Source of the DNA: a virus
DNA: 64,000 nucleotides
Reading direction: 5' to 3' (one strand)
Virus record (IMG/VR): IMGVR_UViG_3300045012_000181
Coordinates: 32,001-96,000 of that record
Numbering within the stretch: position 1 is the stretch's first letter; each line of letters begins with the position of its first letter. Shown here one piece after another: positions 33 through 10,520 of the stretch. The notes beneath the pieces are model-generated. The model ran no database searches, was not told the DNA's origin, and worked only from the letters and a program-made list of their open reading frames with translations. The translations under genes were made by a program, and so were the position numbers.

Positions 33-1205
33 CTAGTCTTTGTAGGGATCTCTGATGTCCGGACCGGCCATCGCAACCCCGACCGGGACAAGTTGATGCA
101 GAATTTTGATGCTATCACCGTGTTCGGCCAGCACCTCAGGCAGCCTTTTGTAGCAATCCGGGCTCTCGTCCAACCCGGCTCCCCGCAGTTCCACATGGGC
201 CTTTTGGAGCCAACCGTCCATCATTTCCTTCGTGACCTTACCAGCACGCAGGACCGCACCGGTCTTCCGATGCACCTTGCCGGCGGCCTCCCGACGGCCC
301 ATAACACGTCCGGCGCCATGCACGGTGCTATAGAGCGAATACTGGGCCTCCTCGTTCTGCACGCCCTCCAAAATTACGCTGCGTTCGCCCATCGTGCCGC
401 CTACAAAGCCCCTCTGACCGGGAAAGGCCGGAGTGGCGCCTTTCCGTACAACCCACAGGTCCTCTCCGCCATGCGTCTCGCGCCAAGCGAAATTGTGGTG
501 GTTGTGTACCTCTTCCAAAATCTTGGCACCTAAAATCAAGGCGACTTTCTGACAGACCCAATCCCTGCCAGCGTAGGCATACTCTCCGGCCAGCTGCATG
601 CACTGCAAGTATTCCGCGCCCAGCGGACCCTCAACGGGTATCACACAGGGTTCCACGTCCATACCATCTTTGGCTCCGGCTTTGTTCAGAAACCAAGTTG
701 CGGTCTTGTGACCCAGCCCTCTAGAACCGAAGTGCACGCCCACCCAGACCCTATCCTGTTCATCCGTAAACAAGTCCACATAATGGTTGCCCGAGCCTAC
801 AGTTCCGAGCTGGTCGGATGCCATCTTCTTCAGGGGCGCGATGGCCTCACAGGACCAAGCCGGACTATCGAACAGCGCGTGGTCTACAGATTCAGCGTTC
901 TGGCGGCCAATGCCAAAGGCAATATTTTTCCACACATCATCCATGATTTGCCTGATGCCCGCTCGAAGCGCACTCCCGGGCATATCTGTTAAAACGGCCT
1001 TGTTACCGCAGGCGATATCGAAGCCCACGCCAGACGGCGAGATGCTGGCCTTGTAGGCCACCACGCCGCCGATTGGCACGGCATACCCAAAATGCCCATC
1101 CGCCATGAGGGCGGCTTTGTCGGCCGTTCGGGCACACGTGCGGATCTGCTTCAGGGTGTTTTCATCGTGCTTGCCCCAGATGGGAATGCCTTCAACGATG
1201 TTCAC
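33..1205 (-). CDS. rtcB: RtcB family RNA-splicing/repair ligase
   Basis: 390 aa. RtcB motifs MADGHxGYAVPIGGVVA, GFDIACGN, QLGTVGSGNHY, VHFGSRGLGH, HNHHNFAW, VRKGATPA, HGAGRVMGR, LDESPDCYK. Confidence 0.95.
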   Translation of the reverse strand: MNIVEGIPIWGKHDENTLKQIRTCARTADKAALMADGHFGYAVPIGGVVAYKASISPSGVGFDIACGNKAVLTDMPGSALRAGIRQIMDDVWKNIAFGIGRQNAESVDHALFDSPAWSCEAIAPLKKMASDQLGTVGSGNHYVDLFTDEQDRVWVGVHFGSRGLGHKTATWFLNKAGAKDGMDVEPCVIPVEGPLGAEYLQCMQLAGEYAYAGRDWVCQKVALILGAKILEEVHNHHNFAWRETHGGEDLWVVRKGATPAFPGQRGFVGGTMGERSVILEGVQNEEAQYSLYSTVHGAGRVMGRREAAGKVHRKTGAVLRAGKVTKEMMDGWLQKAHVELRGAGLDESPDCYKRLPEVLAEHGDSIKILHQLVPVGVAMAGPDIRDPYKD

Positions 1206-2071
1206 TGTTTCTCCAGCAGTTCGATATAGGTACTTAAAAGATGGTTTAGAATCAAATCTAGCCCAAAGGGCGCCTTCAGGCGCACCCGGTTGTTCACATG
1301 CGAGAAGGGCGGCGCCGTGGGCAGATTGGGAATCACATCCCAGGGGTTCTCGTACCGACGGGTAGTTGGGGCCGAGCCCAAATCATACCAGTGCGTCCAG
1401 TCGGCATCTCCAACTCGGGGACTGCCGAACGTAACGCTACTCAAATCAAAATCACTGAAAGCACTGTTTTGCGCCAAGAAGTCCAGATGGTCCACTAGGA
1501 TTGTTCCAAGTGCGCCTCCGAGACTGTGCCCCGCTACCACAACGGCATCCACCTGCTGGCTCTCCAAGAGACTGCGCACGTAATCCGCCAAGGTTACGGA
1601 TTTGGCCGCGGGGCTATTCTTGGCCAGTTGGAGGCTCTTGTAGACCTCCAAAAAGCCCGCATGCACCAGGCCATGCCCCCAAGGACACGGTACAGGAAGG
1701 GCTGTGGCGTCGTCCAGCCACTCCAGCAGCCTTCGGGGGTCCGTGCCCCTTAAGCACACGATGAGCGCTTTGTCCTGTTGGGCCAGGAATCCAAAGCTTA
1801 CCTCCAGAACATTTGGGGGCAAATCCGCTCCGCGAATCTCCTGCAGAAAATTACAGCCCAGGGTTTTGATGGCTGCGAATTGCTCAGGTCCGTATGCGCC
1901 AGGAATACCCGCTACTTGAACCAGACGGGCCAACGTCAGGTCATTGAGAGTGTTTGGCATTCTTGGCATTCCTACCGGCCCCTTACGAAGGCCCTGAAGG
2001 CCCTTATGCACGTGGCCAGCCCAACGAAGGCCAGCACCCAGACCACCCCACAGGCCGTCCACAGATACCAA
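1202..2071 (-). CDS. Class 3 lipase (alpha/beta hydrolase); true start probably ATG at 1960 or 1969
   Basis: Lid motif IVCLRGT, VHAGF, nucleophile elbow VVAGHSLGGALG, TFGSPRVGD, DVIPNLP and a C-terminal His (NHLLSTY). Confidence 0.85.
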   Translation of the reverse strand: MVSVDGLWGGLGAGLRWAGHVHKGLQGLRKGPVGMPRMPNTLNDLTLARLVQVAGIPGAYGPEQFAAIKTLGCNFLQEIRGADLPPNVLEVSFGFLAQQDKALIVCLRGTDPRRLLEWLDDATALPVPCPWGHGLVHAGFLEVYKSLQLAKNSPAAKSVTLADYVRSLLESQQVDAVVVAGHSLGGALGTILVDHLDFLAQNSAFSDFDLSSVTFGSPRVGDADWTHWYDLGSAPTTRRYENPWDVIPNLPTAPPFSHVNNRVRLKAPFGLDLILNHLLSTYIELLEKQ

Positions 2072-3492: not shown

Positions 3493-3849
3493 TTAGATTC
3501 CCAAGAGCCTACGTTCCTCTGGGGTAAGCTTTTTGAGGGCCTTCTTGCGCATGGAGAGCCTGTCGGCCTCCTCCCGCTCACGCTTGAGGCACTCGCGGTC
3601 CTTTAGTTCATGCTCTTTAATCCAATTCCGGGTCTCCTTGCTCAAATTATTAATAGGGTAAATGCGGCTGCCATCTATGTAACCAGACAATTCGCAGGCC
3701 ACCCGGGTTACACGCTCCAGTTCCACACGAAGACGGTCCGCGTCTTCGGCGTCGTAATCAGACCTACAAGGCATCTCAGCACCTCGAAAATAGCGTAAGG
3801 AATTCCAACTTAGTGCGAGCGTAATCGCCGGGGAAGGCATTCTCACCAT
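3493..3849 (-). CDS. Hypothetical protein (likely start ATG near 3771, MPCRSDY...)
   Basis: Charged coiled-coil-like C-terminus; operon position. Confidence 0.55.
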   Translation of the reverse strand: MVRMPSPAITLALSWNSLRYFRGAEMPCRSDYDAEDADRLRVELERVTRVACELSGYIDGSRIYPINNLSKETRNWIKEHELKDRECLKREREEADRLSMRKKALKKLTPEERRLLGI

Positions 3850-4006
3850 GCTTAGTTGCAGCGCTCTGTGTGGCTTCGTATAGACCTAAGGCATCAATGG
3901 GTTTCTGCGTCAACTCCCATTGTACACGGCTGTCGTTTACAATAGCGTCCGTTGTGTTTTGGTCGATGCCCGAGCCCGCAAGCCACAAAACCAGATTAGT
4001 TTTCAT
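3776..4006 (-). CDS. Hypothetical protein
   Basis: ATGA overlap with the stop of the upstream NAMPT-like gene. Confidence 0.6.
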   Translation of the reverse strand: MKTNLVLWLAGSGIDQNTTDAIVNDSRVQWELTQKPIDALGLYEATQSAATKHGENAFPGDYARTKLEFLTLFSRC

Positions 4007-5451
4007 GTTCGTACGCGCTTTCGAATGGTATCGAAGTCCTCTCGAATCAACAACTTACCGTTGCTAAAAATCTTCTGGAAGGCACAGTTGTTAAGGGCTG
4101 CGGGCAACTGTTCATCTACGACATAAAGACCATCGGCCTTGCTGCTGTAAACAGCCGGAATGCCCTTCAAGGAGGCCTTGCTAAAACCGCCTTCGGCCGT
4201 AACGGGCTTCTTGAAAATATCCAGAATTTTGCCCGAACGCCTGACCGCAGTGGCCTTCATGGCGAATCCGTAGGTATCACGGGTGACGTATTCATAGGTA
4301 TAGGAACCTATTCCGAATACGATGTTAAACGGGCTCAGGCCCATCTTCACACAGCCCTCTAGAATGGCATCCGCACGCTCCAATGAGATGCCGTCGCCGT
4401 AAATCAAACCGGCTTTGTTGATGTGTCCGGCGCCGTCCGTGCCCAGCGCCCGGCGTAGCAGCTCTAAGGCCCCATAAGCCGCAGGGTGCGTGCCATAGGG
4501 TGCGTCGGAGTCGCCCAGCATGATCTTAACAGGGTCTCCGCTGTCCGGACGGATTACAACCTTGCCGTCCCGTGCGAGGATTTCCTTGCGCAGGGCCGGA
4601 ATGTACTCCATGAGAACCTTCCAAAGGTCCCAAGTATCCGATACGATGCTAACAATTCCAGTGGGATAGGTCTCCGTTATGAGACGCCTGAAGGTCTCGA
4701 ATTCACCATCCATACCACCGGCGCACATCACAGAATGTTCAGTGGCAGGGACGCTCCCACCACAGCTCAAGGGGGCATCATAGAATTCCCTAGCGGCCAG
4801 AATCGCGGGTATGGTATCCGTGCCGTTGAAGCTCAATAGATGACCCATACCGGAGAACATGGCGTCCTCCAACCCACTCATACCCCGATAGGAGAAATCG
4901 TGGCCCTGCCAATCCACGAAACTCAGGTCCTTCTCGCCAAAATTCCGGGCGTGCTTGATGAACAGTTCCCGGAAGCGGGCTGCTGTAGTTGCGGAGGTGG
5001 TGGACTTCCAGAGCGCATTAGATAACGCGGTCTCAAGAAAATTCGGAAGCCAATAGGCGCTATCATTGGTATTGGTTATGACAAGCATGGGCACGCCCAG
5101 CGGAACACGGGAGCCCTCCGGCAAGGCCCAAATATCCAGCGGAAGGTAGCCCAGTTCCCAGAGCCTTCTTATGTGGTCCAGTTTGGGCTCTTTGAGGCCC
5201 AATGTGGCCAGCACGAATTCCCTGTATTGTTCCGCTATAAGACTCCAACTCTGTTCAAAAAATGCCGGCTTCCAGCGCATGAGATTGTTCTGGATGAAGG
5301 CCCTTGCACCGAACCAGCGCACGTCCTTCTCGCCGGGTATTCGCGAACTGCGGGCCGTCCAGTTGGACCAGACCTGTTGCGTATCGGTGGGATATTGCTC
5401 CCAATGGTGAAGCTTATAAAAATCCGCGTGGTAAAGCGGTGAAGGGTTCAT
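4003..5451 (-). CDS. Nicotinamide phosphoribosyltransferase-like protein (NadV/Nampt family; NARP1 Namat candidate)
   Basis: 482 aa. Motifs ADFYKLHH, HDFSYRGM, HLLSFNGTDT, SVPATEHSVM, VSIVSDTWD, VVIRPDSGDP, IYGDGI, VFGIGSYTY, RDTYGFAMK. Confidence 0.93.
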   Translation of the reverse strand: MNPSPLYHADFYKLHHWEQYPTDTQQVWSNWTARSSRIPGEKDVRWFGARAFIQNNLMRWKPAFFEQSWSLIAEQYREFVLATLGLKEPKLDHIRRLWELGYLPLDIWALPEGSRVPLGVPMLVITNTNDSAYWLPNFLETALSNALWKSTTSATTAARFRELFIKHARNFGEKDLSFVDWQGHDFSYRGMSGLEDAMFSGMGHLLSFNGTDTIPAILAAREFYDAPLSCGGSVPATEHSVMCAGGMDGEFETFRRLITETYPTGIVSIVSDTWDLWKVLMEYIPALRKEILARDGKVVIRPDSGDPVKIMLGDSDAPYGTHPAAYGALELLRRALGTDGAGHINKAGLIYGDGISLERADAILEGCVKMGLSPFNIVFGIGSYTYEYVTRDTYGFAMKATAVRRSGKILDIFKKPVTAEGGFSKASLKGIPAVYSSKADGLYVVDEQLPAALNNCAFQKIFSNGKLLIREDFDTIRKRVRT

Positions 5452-5454
5452 AGA

Positions 5455-6315
5455 CTAGTCTCTCCCACAGTTGTTGCACTCGCAATCGCACTCTTCGGAT
5501 TCGGGCATCTGGATACTGTATTCCGAGGTGAAGACCTGCTTGAAGTGCTTCAGCAACACGGCCCTGCCCTTGGAGAAAATTCCATGGCTCACGTACAAAT
5601 ACAGTTTCAAGTCGGGATTGATTTTTAAGAGCGCCTTAGCCAACCCAATAAAGGTTCCGCCGCCGTCGCAGATGTCGTCTATAATGAGGGCCTTCTTGGC
5701 GCGCTCCACTTGCGGCAGGTCCTCCCACCACACACTGAAGCCGCTGAGTTTGCCCGTCTTGGCATCCCGTTGCTTTCGACAGCAGGCCGTGGGCAAGCTA
5801 TAACGCAGGATGTCATAACGCTTATCTGAGCCTTCATCCGGCAAAATCAATACGAGGTCCCTACGACCCAGTTTCCTTATGATGGGCTGAATTTGGTCGC
5901 ATTGTCTATCCGTGGGATTGAGGTTGGCCAGATTTTCAAACAAATTGTGCGCCACGCCACTGTGCACATCAAAAGTCCAAACCACGCTGAAGTTCAAATT
6001 GTTAATCAACCGGGCCCAAACACCCAGGCCATGACTATCCCCGCCCACGAATCGACGGTCCGCACGGGCATAGGGCATGTAGGGCAGGAATAGACTGGAA
6101 CGCCAGAATCCGCCGGCGTGCTCAAGGGCGTCCTTGAGTTGGGCCAGTTCTATGATATCCGGGATGGGGTTGCAGATAATCTCAAACTCGTCTTTGCCCT
6201 TCACAGCGGCCAGCCCTTTGGCCGTTAGCCGGACTTGGATTTCGCCAGCTGGATAGTGGATTACGCTGTAGAGCACGCCCCGGTCTTGGGGGATTTTGAG
6301 GGTGAGTTTTTTCAC
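5455..6315 (-). CDS. Ribose-phosphate pyrophosphokinase-like protein (Prs family; NARP1 Adps candidate)
   Basis: YPAGE, LPYMPYARADRR, DVHS, PDEG, KQRD, PRPP-binding loop IIDDICDGGGTF, YVSHGIFSKG. Confidence 0.9.
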   Translation of the reverse strand: MKKLTLKIPQDRGVLYSVIHYPAGEIQVRLTAKGLAAVKGKDEFEIICNPIPDIIELAQLKDALEHAGGFWRSSLFLPYMPYARADRRFVGGDSHGLGVWARLINNLNFSVVWTFDVHSGVAHNLFENLANLNPTDRQCDQIQPIIRKLGRRDLVLILPDEGSDKRYDILRYSLPTACCRKQRDAKTGKLSGFSVWWEDLPQVERAKKALIIDDICDGGGTFIGLAKALLKINPDLKLYLYVSHGIFSKGRAVLLKHFKQVFTSEYSIQMPESEECDCECNNCGRD

Positions 6316-7686: not shown

Positions 7687-9081
7687 TTAGTCGCGGGAAG
7701 CCTGCTTTTCTGTAGTCTGGATGTAGTTCAGCACGGCCTCAGACCAACCATCCACGTGGGTCCATGGGCCATATCCAATGCCGTTCTTGTACGACGCGAC
7801 ATTGATAAAATAACCCTGTTTGGGCATGCCATTGTAGGATGGGTTTCGGATGGCCTGGTGGCTCTGCTCATCCGTAATCACGACGATGCGGTCGTAGGAT
7901 TCCTTCTGCGCAAGCGCCAAGGCATCATCGGTGTGCGTGGCGTTGTGCGAGGTGGCGTTCTGGATGGCATCCCTCAGAGCAAAACCCCTCCGAGCCGGCA
8001 CCAACACGGGGTTCACGGAGTAGCTGATTACGAGGGCCTCCTCACAAATCTCTCGCAAAAGAATGGCTAGCGCACAGGCCGCGTCCGAGCGGTCCATGTC
8101 GGATTTCGCGGAGATTTTGGCGCCGTACATCGAGCCACTGTTGTCCACCACGATGCAGGTCTTACCGGGGAGCTTTTCGAAGCCCTCCAGAGAGCGCAAC
8201 ATGGCCTTCTCCAGCTCGGGTTCCCACTGCGGTACATATCGAGCGGCCGCCACGAACCTGAAGGGCAGGATGCGGTCGGTTTTCATTTCCAGCAAAGAGC
8301 CCCGGATGAGCTTCTCGGAGACACCGGCCTCTTTCATGTTGCGCAAATTGCGAATAAGGGCCAGTCCACCGAGCTTGTTCTCCGTAAGGAGGCGCTCCCA
8401 AGATTCCCGTTTGGCTTCGCCCTTACCGGCAGACAACTCAACCTCCCAAGTATCAGGAGTGGCCAGCTTGCCGTCAATCAGGCGCTTCCACAGTTGGGCC
8501 TGCGGCAGACCATCGCGTTCGGCCTTGGACATTCCCACACCCCAGCCCTCAGGTCGCGGATGCACAAGGAACAACACATCCCGTAGTTTGATGGCATTAT
8601 CGCGATTCCACTTCGCAAGCTGATATTCATTAAACTTCTGAAATGCCCTTTGGAGGCCCTTTTGGAGCTGGTGGGAAAGCCTGTTGAGTTTCTTGGTTCC
8701 GGTGCGCTCCCGACTGTAGATACTTAGAATCTCGGCCAGCTCGTCCGCACGCTGGATGATGCAGGCCACCAAATCCGCAACGACGTGCCTGTGCGTCTTG
8801 TGCTTGGCGCATTCCACAGCCAACAGCAGTGGAACATGGCGCAGATGCATGCGCTCACGGGCCTCGATGGCGATTTGCGCCACGGTCTCAGCGGGGACCT
8901 TAGGTACGAGCTCGCAGATGCGGGCCGCGATAGAGACGCCGCTTTCATAGAATTCGGATTCCCATAGCAGGCAGCTCATCACGCTTCGACGCAACTCCTG
9001 CTCAGGCGTGGCGTGCTGGTAGGCCGTTGCGCCTTCGAATGTGAGCTTCTTGGGACGCAGTTCCTTTTTATTTAGGTTCAT
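7687..9081 (-). CDS. rsr: Ro60/TROVE-domain RNA-binding protein (Rsr homolog) with C-terminal vWA domain
   Basis: TFEGA.AY, ELRRSVMSCLLWESEFYESG, IQRADEL, FNEYQLAKW, LRDVLFL.HP, TWEVELS, ALIRNLRN, LPFRFVAA, MIDAS motif VVDNSGSM, VITDEQ, INVASY. Confidence 0.95.
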   Translation of the reverse strand: MNLNKKELRPKKLTFEGATAYQHATPEQELRRSVMSCLLWESEFYESGVSIAARICELVPKVPAETVAQIAIEARERMHLRHVPLLLAVECAKHKTHRHVVADLVACIIQRADELAEILSIYSRERTGTKKLNRLSHQLQKGLQRAFQKFNEYQLAKWNRDNAIKLRDVLFLVHPRPEGWGVGMSKAERDGLPQAQLWKRLIDGKLATPDTWEVELSAGKGEAKRESWERLLTENKLGGLALIRNLRNMKEAGVSEKLIRGSLLEMKTDRILPFRFVAAARYVPQWEPELEKAMLRSLEGFEKLPGKTCIVVDNSGSMYGAKISAKSDMDRSDAACALAILLREICEEALVISYSVNPVLVPARRGFALRDAIQNATSHNATHTDDALALAQKESYDRIVVITDEQSHQAIRNPSYNGMPKQGYFINVASYKNGIGYGPWTHVDGWSEAVLNYIQTTEKQASRD

Positions 9082-9099
9082 GTGCTCTCCTTAAAAAAT

Positions 9100-9184
9100 G
9101 CCCGGGAATCAAGCGAATGCGGTTATGCCTGTTAGGGCATTCTCATTTTCAGTAAGAAGTAACCGCACTCTAACGTCACCGAGC
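9100..9184 (-). ncRNA. Y-RNA-like small RNA 1 (85 nt), immediately upstream of Ro60
   Basis: Terminal stem GCUCGG/CCGGGC; UGACGUUA opposite GCUUGAUU; 11-bp stem GAGUGCGGUUA/UAACCGCAUUC; UACUUC; two inner hairpins; 3' AUUUUUU followed by the Ro60 RBS. Confidence 0.8.
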
Positions 9185-9430
9185 CCTTACACGGTCTGGA
9201 ATATGCAACTGCAATAGCTTCACAACCTCTACAAGTTCGTAGTCACTAGTATGTGGGTAGTGTCCATGGCCGATGTCGCGAACGTATTCCACGGAGCGCA
9301 TCTGCGCCATTGTGGGATTGCGTTTTAACAGGTCCGTCAATGACAACTCTCTAACGTGTTCAGCTATACCGTAAACAAAATCTGTTTCGTTAGCCTCTCT
9401 GCCGCGCTTTACATACTCCTGAGGTGTCAC
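9176..9430 (-). CDS. Hypothetical protein embedded in the RNA array
   Basis: 84 aa, GGAGG RBS before a GTG start; its TGA lies inside the 5' strand of RNA 1. Confidence 0.5.
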   Translation of the reverse strand: MTPQEYVKRGREANETDFVYGIAEHVRELSLTDLLKRNPTMAQMRSVEYVRDIGHGHYPHTSDYELVEVVKLLQLHIPDRVRAR

Positions 9431-9445
9431 CGGGCCTCCAAAAAT

Positions 9446-9549
9446 ACACGGGCATCAGGCGAACTCAGAAATTGTGGGGTTTGAACCCACCACCGGCCCT
9501 TGCGGGCCAGTTCTTGACCAGAAGTATCTGAAGTTCTACGGCACCGTGT
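9446..9549 (-). ncRNA. Y-RNA-like small RNA 2 (104 nt) with a canonical T-arm
   Basis: ACACGG/CCGUGU terminal stem; UGCCGUA...UACUUC; GAACU(U)CAGA/UCUGAGUUC stem; GGCCC-GCAA-GGGCC hairpin; T-arm GUGGG-UUCAAAC-CCCAC; 3' CUGAUG; AUUUUU tail. Confidence 0.8.
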
Positions 9550-9559
9550 TCAAAATTAA

Positions 9560-9647
9560 AGCCGGAAGGGCAGCGACGTTTCTACGGCATTGGAGGATAC
9601 CACCTATTCGATGGTAGACGTTATTCACCCGCGCCACCCATCCGGTT
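9560..9647 (-). ncRNA. Unidentified structured RNA candidate (long branched hairpin)
   Basis: Nested stems CCGGA/UCCGG, GGG/CCC, UGGCG/CGCUG, ACGU/ACGU, UCUAC/GUAGA, followed by a U-rich tail; lacks the 5' Y motif. Confidence 0.45.
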
Positions 9648-9669
9648 GGTACTTTGTTGCAACAAAAAT

Positions 9670-9803
9670 CGAGGAGCATCAGACGATTGGGGTGTCTTTT
9701 TGACAGGCGCTCTCCCAACTGAGCTACGGTCTTGCGACCGACGGGGCTCGAACCCGCGACATCCTGTTTTACATGAAGTATCCCGCAATCTACGGCATCC
9801 TCG
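9670..9803 (-). ncRNA. yrlA: YrlA-like Y RNA (134 nt) with a circularly permuted tRNA-like domain
   Basis: CGAGGA/UCCUCG stem; UGCCGUA-GAUUG/CAAUC; ACAGG/CCUGU; T-arm GCGGG-UUCGAGC-CCCGU; capped acceptor CGGUC-GCAA-GACCG; UA; D-arm GCUC-AGUUGGGA-GAGC. This matches the published YrlA architecture. Confidence 0.88.
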
Positions 9804-9814
9804 TTGAACTCAAA

Positions 9815-9880
9815 GGTGGCGCAACAGGCACCCAAGGAGTTTTCATCCATTAGAAGTATCCATGGGTTACGGCAGCCACC
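9815..9880 (-). ncRNA. Minimal Y-RNA-like small RNA 4 (66 nt)
   Basis: GGUGGC/GCCACC; UGCCGUA opposite GCCUGUUGC; ACCCA/UGGGU; GGA/UCC; loop begins UACUUC. Confidence 0.75.
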
Positions 9881-10039
9881 CGGAGCGTAGCTCCGTTAAA
9901 ACCATCCGTCGCATAAAAATCATGGGCACAACGTCTCCCGATTAGTGCTCTCCCGCTTCGGAGCTGTCGGATGCGCCCTGCGGGCTGTGTTCTTTGACGC
10001 AGCCAACGACCTGTAGTACGGCCCCGGTCGCCTCGGAAT

Positions 10040-10330
10040 TTAACGCTGCACAACGACTTGCGAGGCCTTCTGAGTTTCCAGGGCCTTACGAATCTCAGTG
10101 CTCATATACTGCAGGGCCTTGGCTTCGGCCTCAAACTTAGCGGCCTTGACTTCAGAGGCCTGTTGGTCAGCGGTGCGTTGCTCGGCCAGTTTCTCGCGTT
10201 GCAACTCCACATTCAGGGCGTGTTCGGCCCGACGCATGACATTGCCGTGCAACGTACAGACCATGCTGGCCAGCGCAATGCTCGCTGTCATTCCAAATGC
10301 GCCCAGCATAATACAAGGTGTTATGTCCAT
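10040..10330 (-). CDS. Small membrane-anchored coiled-coil protein (start reassigned to ATG 10330)
   Basis: GAGGAG RBS upstream of ATG 10330; N-terminal hydrophobic helix, then a charged helix. Confidence 0.6.
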   Translation of the reverse strand: MDITPCIMLGAFGMTASIALASMVCTLHGNVMRRAEHALNVELQREKLAEQRTADQQASEVKAAKFEAEAKALQYMSTEIRKALETQKASQVVVQR

Positions 10331-10348
10331 GGTTTTCTCCTCAAAATC

Positions 10349-10417
10349 GAGCGCCTTTTGGTTCTCTGTTCTACATATCAACCCGGCCCGGCGCTTAACA
10401 GGCGCTTTCGGACGCTC
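10349..10417 (-). ncRNA. Mini tRNA-like RNA candidate with an Asn-type anticodon arm
   Basis: 7-bp closing stem GAGCGUC/GGCGCUC; inner GCGC-CUGUUAA-GCGC; GAUUUUG tail like the neighbouring Y RNAs. Confidence 0.4.
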
Positions 10418-10433
10418 TACCAACTCAAAATCA

Positions 10434-10520
10434 ACGCAGGGCATCAATCGTCTGGAGCGGTGCCTCCTTGACGGAGGCGCTTCTTAACGGGAAGTAGCTC
10501 CAGGCATACGGCACCTGCGC
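10434..10520 (-). ncRNA. Y-RNA-like small RNA 5 (87 nt), first of the array
   Basis: GCGCAGG/CCUGCGU; UGCCGUA opposite AUUGAUGC; CUGGAGC/GCUCCAG; UACUUC; GCCUCC-GUCAA-GGAGGC hairpin; GAUUUUG tail. Confidence 0.78.

What the first reader, a model, noticed from the sequence alone, without database searches (positions are those of the whole stretch)
9136..10496. Anticodon-loop mimics inside the array: possible decoys for anticodon nucleases
Seen: RNA 1 has UCUUA-CUGAAAA-UGAGA, a 5-bp stem with a perfect tRNA-Phe-type loop (CU GAA AA). RNA 5 has CUUC-CCGUUAA-GAAG (GUU, Asn-like). RNA 2 has UUC-UGGUCAA-GAA (GUC, Asp-like). The 10349-10417 element has GCGC-CUGUUAA-GCGC (perfect Asn loop). All are 7-nt loops with a central GNN triplet followed by AA. 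Established: many defence toxins cut tRNA anticodon loops, and RtcB reseals 2',3'-cyclic-phosphate/5'-OH breaks. Inference: Ro-held anticodon arms could titrate such nucleases or act as RtcB substrates or guides. Short stems make chance matches possible, especially for RNAs 2 and 5.
Basis: partly seen in the sequence, partly recalled or inferred. Interest (0 to 1): 0.7.

Follow-up and report, generated by a model that had tools for sequence, protein, structure and literature searches.

The report
Anticodon-arm mimics in phage Y RNAs
Three of the four hairpins are genuine, evolutionarily conserved copies of a tRNA anticodon stem-loop built into the small Y RNAs next to a phage Ro60 gene; this was not described in the Y RNA papers I could read, and its proposed role as a nuclease decoy remains untested.

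Summary
The window is part of a 125.6-kb soil phage. On the minus strand, a Ro60/TROVE gene (9081-7687) follows an array of Y-RNA-like units. Each unit has a 5' GCCGUAGA motif, a helix, UACUUC, a variable module and a 3' UGAUGCCC strand.

All four hairpins exist as described.
- **RNA 1** (9140-9158, loop CUGAAAA) and the **10391-10405 hairpin** (CUGUUAA) carry textbook anticodon loops.
- **RNA 5** (10480-10494, CCGUUAA) belongs to a family that keeps CUUC-CUGUUAA-GAAG in three distant phages. The window copy has C at position 33.
- **RNA 2** is not anticodon-like. Its relatives conserve GG, as in a tRNA D loop.

I compared 171 phage and 193 Acidobacteriota units.
- The hairpin after UACUUC most often has a 7-nt loop.
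- In those loops C32, U33, purine 37 and A38 are conserved, and the middle triplet is free.
- CUNNNAA occurs 19 times, against 0.035 in shuffles.
- In full tRNA-like units a 4-6-nt linker joins this hairpin to the T arm. ARAGORN such units tRNAs.

Anticodon-arm mimicry is therefore real and widespread. The literature calls this hairpin a "V" stem-loop and says Salmonella YrlA lacks an anticodon loop. The decoy and RtcB ideas remain untested. RtcB is rarely near Ro60 in relatives.

The parts
7687..9081 (-). Ro60/TROVE gene (464 aa)
   Evidence: Pfam TROVE 1.1e-18 plus a weaker VWA_2 match (26.8 bits) just under its Pfam cut-off of 27. It is 48-70% identical to Ro60 of many phage contigs.
9092..9183 (-).
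   Evidence: MFE fold -28.7 kcal/mol. Same architecture as L005:1184 and L004:3495, which share UGCC/GGCA or another GC-rich second hairpin.
9140..9158 (-). Anticodon-arm mimic of unit G: UUCUUA-CUGAAAA-UGAGAA. The loop (9146-9152) equals the tRNA-Phe loops of two phage tRNA-Phe genes, on L132 and L196
   Evidence: The same loop recurs in L139, L236 and L240 on different stems. tRNA-Phe genes on L132 and L196 carry CUGAAAA.
9126..9139 (-). Second hairpin of unit G: UGCC-CUAACA-GGCA
   Evidence: L005 has UGCC-GUAA-GGCA at the same place.
9438..9548 (-).
   Evidence: Fold. Acidobacteriota arrays hold the same class, UACUUC-U..GGY..GAA + capped hairpin + T arm.
9511..9523 (-). D-arm-like, not anticodon-like
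   Evidence: It follows UA, as tRNA positions 8 and 9 do. G at 'position 33' violates U33. Relatives conserve GG in this loop: 12 phage and 18 bacterial units, against 1-2 in shuffles.
9662..9803 (-). Y-RNA unit D: YrlA-type, permuted tRNA-like core at 9705-9765 (T arm, capped acceptor-like stem, UA, D arm), with no anticodon hairpin
   Evidence: Rfam YrlA 33 bits, E 1e-4, below the gathering score of 69. Fold.
9803..9882 (-). Y-RNA unit C: single hairpin UUC-UAAUGGAU-GAA (9842-9855) with a D-loop-like GG
   Evidence: It shares the AUACUUC motif.
9912..10032 (-). Divergent Y-RNA-like unit B (GGGGCCGUA ... GUUGUGCCC + U run; UACUAC instead of UACUUC)
   Evidence: Not analysed further.
10338..10436 (-). 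Element A2: decayed tRNA-like element with no Ro-binding 5' strand. It has a D-loop remnant AGUUGGUAGAGC (10414-10425), an extended arm (10387-10412) and a degenerate T region
   Evidence: Homologous in layout to L216:34 and L217:1759, which read UACUUC-AGUYGGUAGAGC-capped arm-AGGUC-T arm. Neither ARAGORN nor Rfam calls a tRNA here.
10391..10405 (-). Anticodon arm of A2: GCGC-CUGUUAA-GCGC. The loop equals the tRNA-Asn loops of three phage tRNA-Asn genes (L128, L149, L176)
   Evidence: It sits where the anticodon arm follows the D stem. tRNA-Asn genes on L128, L149 and L176 carry CUGUUAA. It is absent from the MFE fold of the element alone.
10432..10520 (-).
   Evidence: MFE -39.1 kcal/mol. L171, L195 and L197 are orthologous in layout.
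10480..10494 (-). Anticodon-arm mimic of unit A: CUUC-CCGUUAA-GAAG (loop 10484-10490), an Asn-type loop with C33
   Evidence: L171, L195 and L197 all keep CUUC-CUGUUAA-GAAG while their flanking helices differ.
33..1205 (-). RtcB RNA ligase gene, same strand, 6.5 kb downstream of Ro60
   Evidence: Pfam RtcB 8.8e-64. Linkage to Ro60 is not conserved in relatives.

Best explanation
The hairpins in RNA 1 (unit G), RNA 5 (unit A) and the 10391-10405 element are copies of the tRNA anticodon arm. They form part of the effector module of Ro60-bound Y RNAs. RNA 2's hairpin, and that of unit C, is instead the D-arm counterpart of a non-permuted tRNA-like module.

Shown here: in this Y RNA lineage, found in Acidobacteriota (Terriglobia) and their phages, a conserved UACUUC motif follows the Ro-proximal helix. 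A short stem starts inside that motif and very often closes a 7-nt loop. The loop keeps C32, U33, purine 37 and A38. The three middle bases vary between RNA families but are kept within a family. In full YrlA-type units a 4-6-nt linker, often AGGUC, joins this hairpin to the T arm, which reproduces tRNA positions 27-65.

Inferred: the loop adopts the U-turn shape of a real anticodon loop while Ro60 holds the other end of the RNA. It is read by a protein that recognises anticodon arms. The Y RNA then either tethers that protein to Ro60, as Y RNAs tether PNPase, or occupies it in competition with tRNA. Candidate readers are anticodon nucleases, enzymes that modify positions 34 and 37, and aminoacyl-tRNA synthetases. 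An array of units with different triplets would address several tRNA specificities at once.
For: 1. Every complete unit has the Y RNA scaffold and lies upstream of Ro60 on its strand.
2. Loop size: 37 of 175 phage units have a 7-nt loop, against 6.8 in shuffles. Nineteen read CUNNNAA, against 0.035.
3. Base use in 7-nt loops: position 32 is C in 29 of 37 phage and 32 of 38 bacterial loops. Position 33 is U in 31 of 37 and 33 of 38. Position 37 is a purine in 35 of 37 and 33 of 38. Position 38 is A in 30 of 37 and 26 of 38. Positions 34-36 use all bases.
4. In 17 YrlA-type units U33 has 0 bits of entropy and positions 34-36 have 1.6-1.9 bits. Every other position from 27 to 65 has at most 1.3 bits.
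5. Where a T arm follows a 7-nt-loop hairpin, the linker is 4-6 nt in all 12 phage units and 3-5 nt in 19 of 23 bacterial units, with a mode of 5.
6. ARAGORN units that contain the UAC[UA]UC motif tRNAs. In the YrlA-type calls the anticodon it reports falls in the hairpin-1 loop, for example Asn GUU 12 times.
7. The stem covaries: pair 31:39 is AU 27, CG 25, UA 4, GC 4. Swapping partners between units drops pairing at that pair to 45%.
8. Triplets are conserved within families across diverged phages. CUUC-CUGUUAA-GAAG occurs in L171, L195 and L197. UUCA-CUGCUAA-UGAA occurs in L126, L131, L154 and L163 with different helices.
9. The window loops CUGAAAA and CUGUUAA are identical to the loops of real phage tRNA-Phe and tRNA-Asn genes found next to other Ro60 genes.
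10. Published context: YrlA is a tRNA mimic and a substrate of tRNA-modifying enzymes (PMC4201824). Y RNAs tether PNPase, including in a phage (PMC12135203). A phage Ro60-like protein counters a defence system (PMC11482910).
Against: - There is no expression or probing data for this phage.
- Units G and A have no T or D arm, so their tRNA likeness rests on the hairpin alone.
- Unit A has C33. The stems are 4-6 bp rather than always 5.
- The A2 hairpin is not in the MFE fold of that element, and A2 lacks a Ro-binding strand.
- The triplets include A34 anticodons and stop anticodons (AUU, AAU, CUA), which real bacterial tRNA sets avoid. The set is therefore not a faithful copy of a tRNA repertoire.
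- Many compared loci are related, so the counts are not independent events.
- The stem statistics come from hairpins that were selected for pairing.
- No partner protein is identified.
Confidence: 0.55

Rival explanations
1. Specific decoy. The Ro60-held anticodon arms bind and titrate host anticodon nucleases, or are cut in place of tRNA, and so protect the tRNA pool during infection.
For: - The loops have the features anticodon nucleases read, and triplets are family-specific.
- The phage record holds no tRNA gene of its own. It carries other counter-defence-like genes nearby: an RtcB and a Prs-like/NAMPT-like pair.
- Hughes et al. proposed competitive inhibition of an anticodon nuclease by YrlA (PMC7790460).
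- A paper title cited says phage tRNAs evade such nucleases through anticodon-loop mutations. The C33 in unit A could be read the same way.
Against: - No nuclease is identified.
- A stoichiometric decoy must compete with a very large tRNA pool.
- In Salmonella, YrlA was not a substrate of the anticodon nuclease.
- The same hairpins occur in bacterial chromosomal arrays, where a phage decoy role does not apply.
Confidence: 0.2
2. Evolutionary relic. The units descend from tRNA genes, and the anticodon-arm features persist through descent and the stability of a U-turn loop. No partner reads the loop. The hairpin is only a structural strut, the 'V' stem-loop of Chen et al.
For: - Y RNA arrays often sit beside real tRNA clusters in phages.
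- Units such as L217:1759 look like fused tRNA parts, which fits the dimeric-tRNA origin model quoted.
- Chen et al. call this stem-loop less conserved.
- A34 and stop triplets occur.
Against: - Positions 34-36 are close to randomised between families, while U33, R37 and the loop length are kept in the same loops. That pattern needs selection on the flanks.
- Whole loops, triplet included, are identical across phages whose neighbouring helices have diverged.
Confidence: 0.15
3. Base-pairing guide. The exposed triplet and its flanks pair with a complementary loop or single strand, for example another tRNA's anticodon, and so select substrates for Ro60 and its nuclease partner.
For: The triplet is the only freely variable part and is family-specific. 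Anticodon loops are pre-organised for pairing, which is established tRNA knowledge.
Against: Three to five base pairs give little specificity. No complementary target was sought or found here. Several triplets would pair with anticodons that bacteria rarely use.
Confidence: 0.07
4. Chance hairpins in a structured, repeat-rich region.
For: The stems are short (3-6 bp). RNA 2's 'anticodon' reading is indeed a coincidence of frame.
Against: Window background of 0.078 per kb per strand, against 2 in 1.44 kb. The enrichment and conservation in 140 other loci are very large.
Confidence: 0.03

Closest known systems
YrlA 'V' stem-loop (Chen et al. 2014, RNA 20:1715; Rfam RF02553)
   Same: Same place in the RNA: directly after the conserved YUAY motif (here UUAC/AUAC of UACUUC) and 5' of the T arm, in Y RNAs encoded next to Ro60 on the same strand.
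   Different: It was described as a less conserved stem-loop equivalent to the tRNA variable arm. Here it has anticodon-arm dimensions (4-6 bp, 7-nt loop), the C32/U33/R37/A38 signature and a 4-6-nt linker to the T arm. It also occurs alone in minimal units that have no T or D arm.
S. Typhimurium YrlA tRNA-like domain (PDB 6CU1; Wang et al. 2018)
   Same: L-shaped tRNA mimic on a Ro-binding stem. Unit D of the window is of this type.
   Different: That RNA 'lacks the anticodon loop', and its anticodon stem is made by the 5' and 3' strands that lead to the Ro site. Units G and A, and many relatives, carry a closed anticodon-like hairpin instead.
D. radiodurans Yrn1
   Same: Non-permuted order D-like, anticodon-like arm, T arm on the Ro stem, as in window unit F.
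   Different: Yrn1's 'anticodon loop' has 6 nt. Unit F caps that arm with GCAA. The anticodon-like loops discussed here sit in a different hairpin.
tRNA-like structures with anticodon-domain mimics (TYMV TLS, tmRNA-SmpB)
   Same: tRNA mimicry that includes an anticodon-domain substitute.
   Different: Those have a free CCA end and are aminoacylated. The Y RNA units have a capped acceptor-like stem or none, and are tied to Ro60.
Phage-encoded tRNAs beside Ro60 genes
   Same: Identical loop sequences (CUGAAAA, CUGUUAA) and the same genomic neighbourhood in several phages. Bas63's Ro60-like gene also sits upstream of its tRNA genes.
   Different: The window units are not tRNAs. ARAGORN and Rfam tRNA find none in the window or in the whole phage record.

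Membership tests
Bacterial/phage Y RNA (YrlA/YrlB class) | Encoded within a few kb of a Ro60 orthologue on the same strand | tested here: met
   The array at 9092-10520 lies directly upstream of TROVE gene 9081-7687, minus strand.
Bacterial/phage Y RNA (YrlA/YrlB class) | 5'-proximal Ro-binding motif GNCGAAN0-1G in a bulged helix formed by the 5' and 3' ends | tested here: met
   Variant GCCGUAGA (also GACGUUAGA and GCCGUAUG) with a 3' strand ..UGAUGCCC. Relatives have GGCGUAGA or GGUGAAGA with UCGCUUGUUCC. Binding itself was not tested.
Bacterial/phage Y RNA (YrlA/YrlB class) | Conserved YUAY after the Ro-proximal helix | tested here: met
   UACUUC preceded by U, A or C in units A, C, D, F and G and in hundreds of related units.
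YrlA (Rfam RF02553) | Permuted tRNA-like core: T arm, capped acceptor-like stem, UA, D arm. Score at or above the gathering cut-off | tested here: inconclusive
   Only unit D matches, at 33 bits against a cut-off of 69, E 1e-4, model positions 23-85. Units A, C and G lack T and D arms. Unit F has a T arm and a D-arm-like hairpin, but in non-permuted order.
tRNA anticodon arm (positions 27-43) | Stem of about 5 bp closing a 7-nt loop | tested here: met
   G has 6 bp, A has 4 bp, A2 has 4 bp plus a 4-bp extension, all with 7-nt loops. 7 nt is the modal loop size in the family. F folds better with a 5-nt loop.
tRNA anticodon arm (positions 27-43) | Pyrimidine 32, invariant U33, purine 37 | tested here: met
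   Met in G (CU GAA AA) and A2 (CU GUU AA). A has C33 and F has G33. Across the family U33 is 84-87% and R37 is 87-95%.
tRNA anticodon arm (positions 27-43) | Joined to the T arm by a 4-5-nt variable loop | tested here: not met
   Not met for the window units G and A, which have no T arm. In A2 the T region is degenerate. It is met in related YrlA-type units, with a linker mode of 5, often AGGUC.
tRNA gene | Full cloverleaf detected by ARAGORN or Rfam RF00005 | tested here: not met
   0 tRNAs in the window and 0 in the 125.6-kb record.
Anticodon-nuclease decoy or inhibitor | Binds or is cut by an anticodon nuclease and protects tRNA | not testable with these tools
   No experiment was possible. 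There is only the published suggestion for YrlA.

The most novel reading that the evidence does not exclude
Ro60-bound Y RNA arrays are panels of sequence-specific anticodon stem-loop mimics. Each family keeps its own triplet (Asn-, Ser-, Phe-, Leu- or Pro-type) in an invariant U-turn frame. The panel lets a bacterium or phage sense, sequester or redirect the enzymes that attack or modify particular tRNA anticodon loops. The minimal one- and two-hairpin units, like RNA 1 and RNA 5 here, would be stand-alone anticodon-arm baits on a Ro60 handle.
Probability: 0.2. Interest if true: 0.85.

Novelty: new variant of a known kind. Interest (0 to 1): 0.65.

Why it matters
Y RNAs are known tRNA mimics, but the partner of the YrlA class is unknown. 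The papers I could read treat this class as lacking an anticodon loop.

Many Y RNAs carry a canonical anticodon arm, including minimal units made of little else. The triplet is kept within a family and differs between families. This narrows the search for partners to proteins that read anticodon loops. It also gives concrete loop mutants to test.

For phages, it links Ro60 loci to the conflict over tRNA cleavage. These loci often sit in tRNA islands, and one phage Ro60-like protein has been shown to counter a defence system.

Tried and rejected
- The Rfam gathering scan of the window found no match. Only a sub-threshold YrlA hit appeared in unit D.
- A DNA search of the locus against 50,697 phage records found no match.
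- No RNA holder is listed for this stretch. Two soil DNA runs hold it, and one may be the source.
- Local MFE folding of 30-nt pieces missed most weak hairpins (111 of 175 gave 'none'). I replaced it with stem enumeration plus a shuffle control.
- The MAFFT alignment A2 aligned on UACUUC, not on the loops, so stems were out of register. The count of structure pairs was therefore not run, and pair tables were computed in scripts.
- The pattern scan TGGCGTAGAN{6,9}TACTTC returns many chance hits by my estimate. Final statistics use only Ro60-anchored loci.
- RtcB linkage: 0 of about 83 phage loci and 2 of 80 bacterial loci have RtcB within 2.5 kb of Ro60, so the RtcB-substrate idea gains nothing from synteny.
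- The promoter and terminator scan gave no excess over shuffles.
- The two Wolin-lab reviews (PMC10870794, PMC6047535) are not held, so I could not check whether they mention anticodon-like loops.
- Reading unit D's UACUUCAUGUAAAACAGGAU as a weak anticodon arm (3 of 5 pairs) was rejected. The Rfam-supported CAGG/CCUG closing helix is preferred.
Full report
**Context.** The window is bases 32001-96000 of a 125.6-kb IMG/VR virus record. Soil metagenomes hold the stretch. All relevant features lie on the minus strand.
- ORF 9081-7687 is a Ro60 orthologue. It matches Pfam TROVE (1.1e-18) and, just under the Pfam cut-off, VWA_2. It is 48-70% identical to Ro60 of many phage contigs. It is 55-59% identical to Ro60 of Acidobacteriota (Terriglobia) genomes, which suggests that host clade.
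- Downstream on the same strand lie a DUF5317 protein, a Prs-like/NAMPT-like pair and, 6.5 kb away, RtcB.
- ARAGORN and Rfam find no tRNA in the window or in the whole record.

**The array.** Upstream of Ro60 (9092-10520) the sequence is a chain of Y-RNA-like units.
- Each unit has a closing stem, a 5' motif GCCGUAGA and a 7-11-bp helix. GCCGUAGA is the local form of the published Ro-binding motif GNCGAAN0-1G.
- The helix is followed by the hexamer UACUUC, a variable module and the returning helix strand. The unit ends with ..UGAUGCCC and usually a U run.
- I call the complete units A (10520-10432), C (9882-9803), D (9803-9662), F (9548-9438) and G (9183-9092).
- B (10032-9912) is divergent. 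A2 (10436-10338) and 9662-9546 look like remnants.
- Two small ORFs are interleaved (10331-10040 and 9430-9176).
- Unit D is the only Rfam hit: YrlA at 33 bits, below the cut-off of 69.

**The observation.** All four hairpins are present as written.
- Inside the window alone, two strict CUNNNAA hairpins in 1.44 kb compare with 0.11 expected from the window's own density.

**Comparative test.** I collected Ro60-anchored loci: 83 phage contigs and 80 bacterial contigs, almost all Terriglobia. Nearly all carry arrays with the same scaffold, GGYGWAGA-helix-UACUUC ... UCGYUUGUUCC. I enumerated the best stem starting in or just after CUUC in each unit.
- Among 175 non-redundant phage units, a 7-nt loop is the modal outcome: 37, against 6.8 in 200 shuffles with a maximum of 16.
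- Nineteen loops read CUNNNAA, against 0.035 in shuffles with a maximum of 1.
- A second pass allowed two G-U pairs, on 171 phage and 193 bacterial units. It gave 37 and 38 seven-nt loops.

| Loop position | Phage loops | Bacterial loops |
|---|---|---|
| 32 = C | 29/37 | 32/38 |
| 33 = U | 31/37 | 33/38 |
| 37 = purine | 35/37 | 33/38 |
| 38 = A | 30/37 | 26/38 |
| 34-36 | all bases | all bases |

- The stem covaries. Pair 31:39 is AU 27, CG 25, UA 4, GC 4. Pair 30:40 is GC 32, CG 21, UA 6, AU 2. Exchanging 3' strands between units drops pairing to 45%. The hairpins were selected for pairing, so this shows diversity of pair types, not an independent test.

**Why 'anticodon arm' and not only 'V stem-loop'.** Chen et al. 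[quoted passage not shown] They equated it with the variable arm and noted that the conserved YUAY begins it. Wang et al. state that Salmonella YrlA lacks the anticodon loop. Four results here argue for an anticodon arm.
- Where a T arm follows a 7-nt-loop hairpin, the linker is 4-6 nt in all 12 phage units and 3-5 nt in 19 of 23 bacterial units. The mode is 5 and the sequence is often AGGUC.
- In 17 units of the form UAC-UUCGC-loop-GCGGG-AGGUC-T arm, the per-position entropy follows the tRNA pattern. U33 has 0 bits and positions 34-36 have 1.9, 1.6 and 1.6 bits. G45, G46, G53, U54, U55, C56 and A58 have 0 bits, and everything else has at most 1.3 bits.
- G37 appears mostly after G36, with the triplets CAG, UGG and UAG.
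- ARAGORN, which knows nothing of Y RNAs, units carrying the UAC[UA]UC motif tRNAs. In the YrlA-type calls the anticodon it reports falls in this loop. Examples are Asn GUU 12 times, Ser UGA, Leu CAG and UAG, Pro UGG, Lys UUU, Ile GAU, Thr UGU and Gln CUG.

These hairpins therefore occupy tRNA positions 27-43, with the Ro-binding stem entering at the 26/27 junction. Whether the hairpin or the Ro-proximal helix stacks under the D stem in three dimensions cannot be decided here.

**The window's hairpins one by one.**
- **Unit G (RNA 1).** It has the loop CUGAAAA on a 6-bp stem, followed by UGCC-CUAACA-GGCA. Two-hairpin units of the same layout occur in L005 (CUUAAAA, with UGCC-GUAA-GGCA), L004 (CUCUAAA), L252 (CUUAGAA) and L248. 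The loop CUGAAAA recurs on other stems in L139, L236 and L240. It equals the loop of phage tRNA-Phe genes on L132 and L196.
- **Unit A (RNA 5).** It belongs to a family (L171, L195, L197) that keeps CUUC-CUGUUAA-GAAG identical, followed by a GNRA-capped GC hairpin. The flanking helices differ in those phages. Their Ro60 proteins are only about 50% identical to the window's. The window copy differs by U33 to C.
- **Element A2.** It has a D-loop and D-stem remnant AGUUGGUAGAGC, one base, then an arm UCCG-AAA-GCGC-CUGUUAA-GCGC-CGGG, then a degenerate T region. Its layout matches L216:34 and L217:1759, where the arm is tetraloop-capped. It has no Ro-binding 5' strand. Its hairpin is a true anticodon-arm position of a decayed tRNA-like element, but its function is doubtful.
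- **Unit F (RNA 2).** This one is different. After UA comes UUCU-GGUCA-AGAA, then a GCAA-capped 7-bp hairpin, then the T arm GUGGG-UUCAAAC-CCCAC. That is the non-permuted order D arm, anticodon arm, T arm, as described for D. radiodurans Yrn1. Terriglobia arrays contain a conserved class UACUUC-U..GGY..GAA + capped hairpin + T arm. It is found in 18 bacterial and 12 phage units, against 1-2 in shuffles. The conserved feature is GG, as in D-loop G18-G19, not an anticodon frame. The 'GUC' is a coincidence. Unit C (UUC-UAAUGGAU-GAA) is of the same GG type.
- Units such as L216:34 read UA-CUUC-AGUUGGUA-GAGC. By inference, this suggests that UACUUC itself derives from U8, A9 and the D-stem 5' strand.

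**Triplets.** Between families the triplet is nearly random. Within families it is kept across diverged phages: GUU in the A-type family, and GCU in UUCA-CUGCUAA-UGAA of L126, L131, L154 and L163 with different helices. Arrays usually combine different triplets. A34 and stop-type triplets occur (AUU, AAU, CUA), so the set does not copy a real tRNA repertoire.

**Function.**
- Established: Y RNAs tether Ro60 to PNPase, also in a Thermus phage. YrlA is modified by tRNA enzymes, and its effector is unknown.
- Established: the Salmonella rsr-yrlBA-rtcBA operon is induced by cleaved tRNAs. Its authors suggested YrlA might competitively inhibit the anticodon nuclease, although YrlA is not a substrate.
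- Established: the Ro60-like gp130 of phage Bas63 counters the ppl defence and sits upstream of tRNA genes.
- New here: many phage Ro60 genes lie in or beside large tRNA clusters, for example L128, L196, L193 and L201.
- Inference: the conserved U-turn frame with a family-specific triplet is a ligand for proteins that read anticodon loops, held on a Ro60 handle. It acts either as a tether or as a competitor.
- The decoy version is plausible but unproven.
- The RtcB version gets no support from synteny: 0 of about 83 phage and 2 of 80 bacterial loci have RtcB within 2.5 kb.
- The same hairpins in bacterial chromosomal arrays argue for a function wider than phage counter-defence.

**A lead outside this lineage.** The M. 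smegmatis YrlA 5' probe printed in Chen et al. implies the RNA segment UUAC-CCA-CUUCUAA-UGG. That is again YUAY followed by a 7-nt CU...AA loop. I did not verify this on the genome.

**Verdict.** 'Anticodon-loop mimic' is supported as a structural statement. 'Decoy for anticodon nucleases' and 'RtcB substrate' remain hypotheses. Relative to the literature I could read, this is a new variant of a known kind: a YrlA-type tRNA mimic that includes a canonical anticodon arm, and minimal Y RNAs that consist of little else.

Noticed in passing
window 4003-6315 (-): A Prs-like (Pribosyltran) gene sits directly upstream of a NAPRTase/NAMPT-family gene on the Ro60 strand.
   Followed up: no
window 10040-10331 (-) and 9176-9430 (-): Two small ORFs with good ribosome-binding sites (GAGGAG, GGAGG) are interleaved between Y RNA units. 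The first looks like a membrane-anchored coiled-coil protein. Neither has a Pfam match.
   Followed up: partly
L206-L285 (bacterial loci): The closest cellular Ro60 homologues (55-59% identity) are almost all from Acidobacteriota/Terriglobia. They carry arrays of up to five or more Y RNA units with the same UACUUC scaffold, which points to that clade as the phage's host range.
   Followed up: partly
L128, L196, L193, L201, L137, L155, L188: Many phage Ro60 genes lie inside or next to large tRNA gene clusters (up to 27 tRNAs within 6 kb). L176 and L185 have a single true tRNA (Asn, Glu) between the Y RNA array and Ro60.
   Followed up: partly
L222, L251, L254 at about 3840-5090 (complementary strand): In several Terriglobia genomes, Ro60 is followed by a cluster made only of long-variable-arm tRNAs (Leu, Tyr, Ser, Ser, Leu).
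   Followed up: no
L001:3312-3440: A tRNA-like RNA with an open acceptor stem (GUGGU/ACCAC), a D arm and a T arm. Its anticodon region appears to be replaced by a loop-closed Ro-binding stem. This is the circular permutation of the usual YrlA layout.
   Followed up: partly
L216:34, L217:1759, L255:2195: Units reading UA-CUUC-AGUYGGUA-GAGC + capped arm + AGGUC + T arm + acceptor-like hairpin + a second D arm. They look like fused parts of two tRNAs, as in the published dimeric-tRNA origin model. They suggest that UACUUC descends from U8, A9 and the D-stem 5' strand.
   Followed up: partly
window 9546-9662 (-): Fragments of Y RNA units: a GCCGUAGAAACG 5' motif abutting a 3'-strand-like UCGCUGCCCUUCC, and a degenerate T-arm-like GGGUGGCGCGGGU. 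They are probably decay products of duplications.
   Followed up: no
window 1202-2071 (-): A class 3 lipase domain protein (Pfam 1.9e-19) lies next to RtcB in a phage genome.
   Followed up: no
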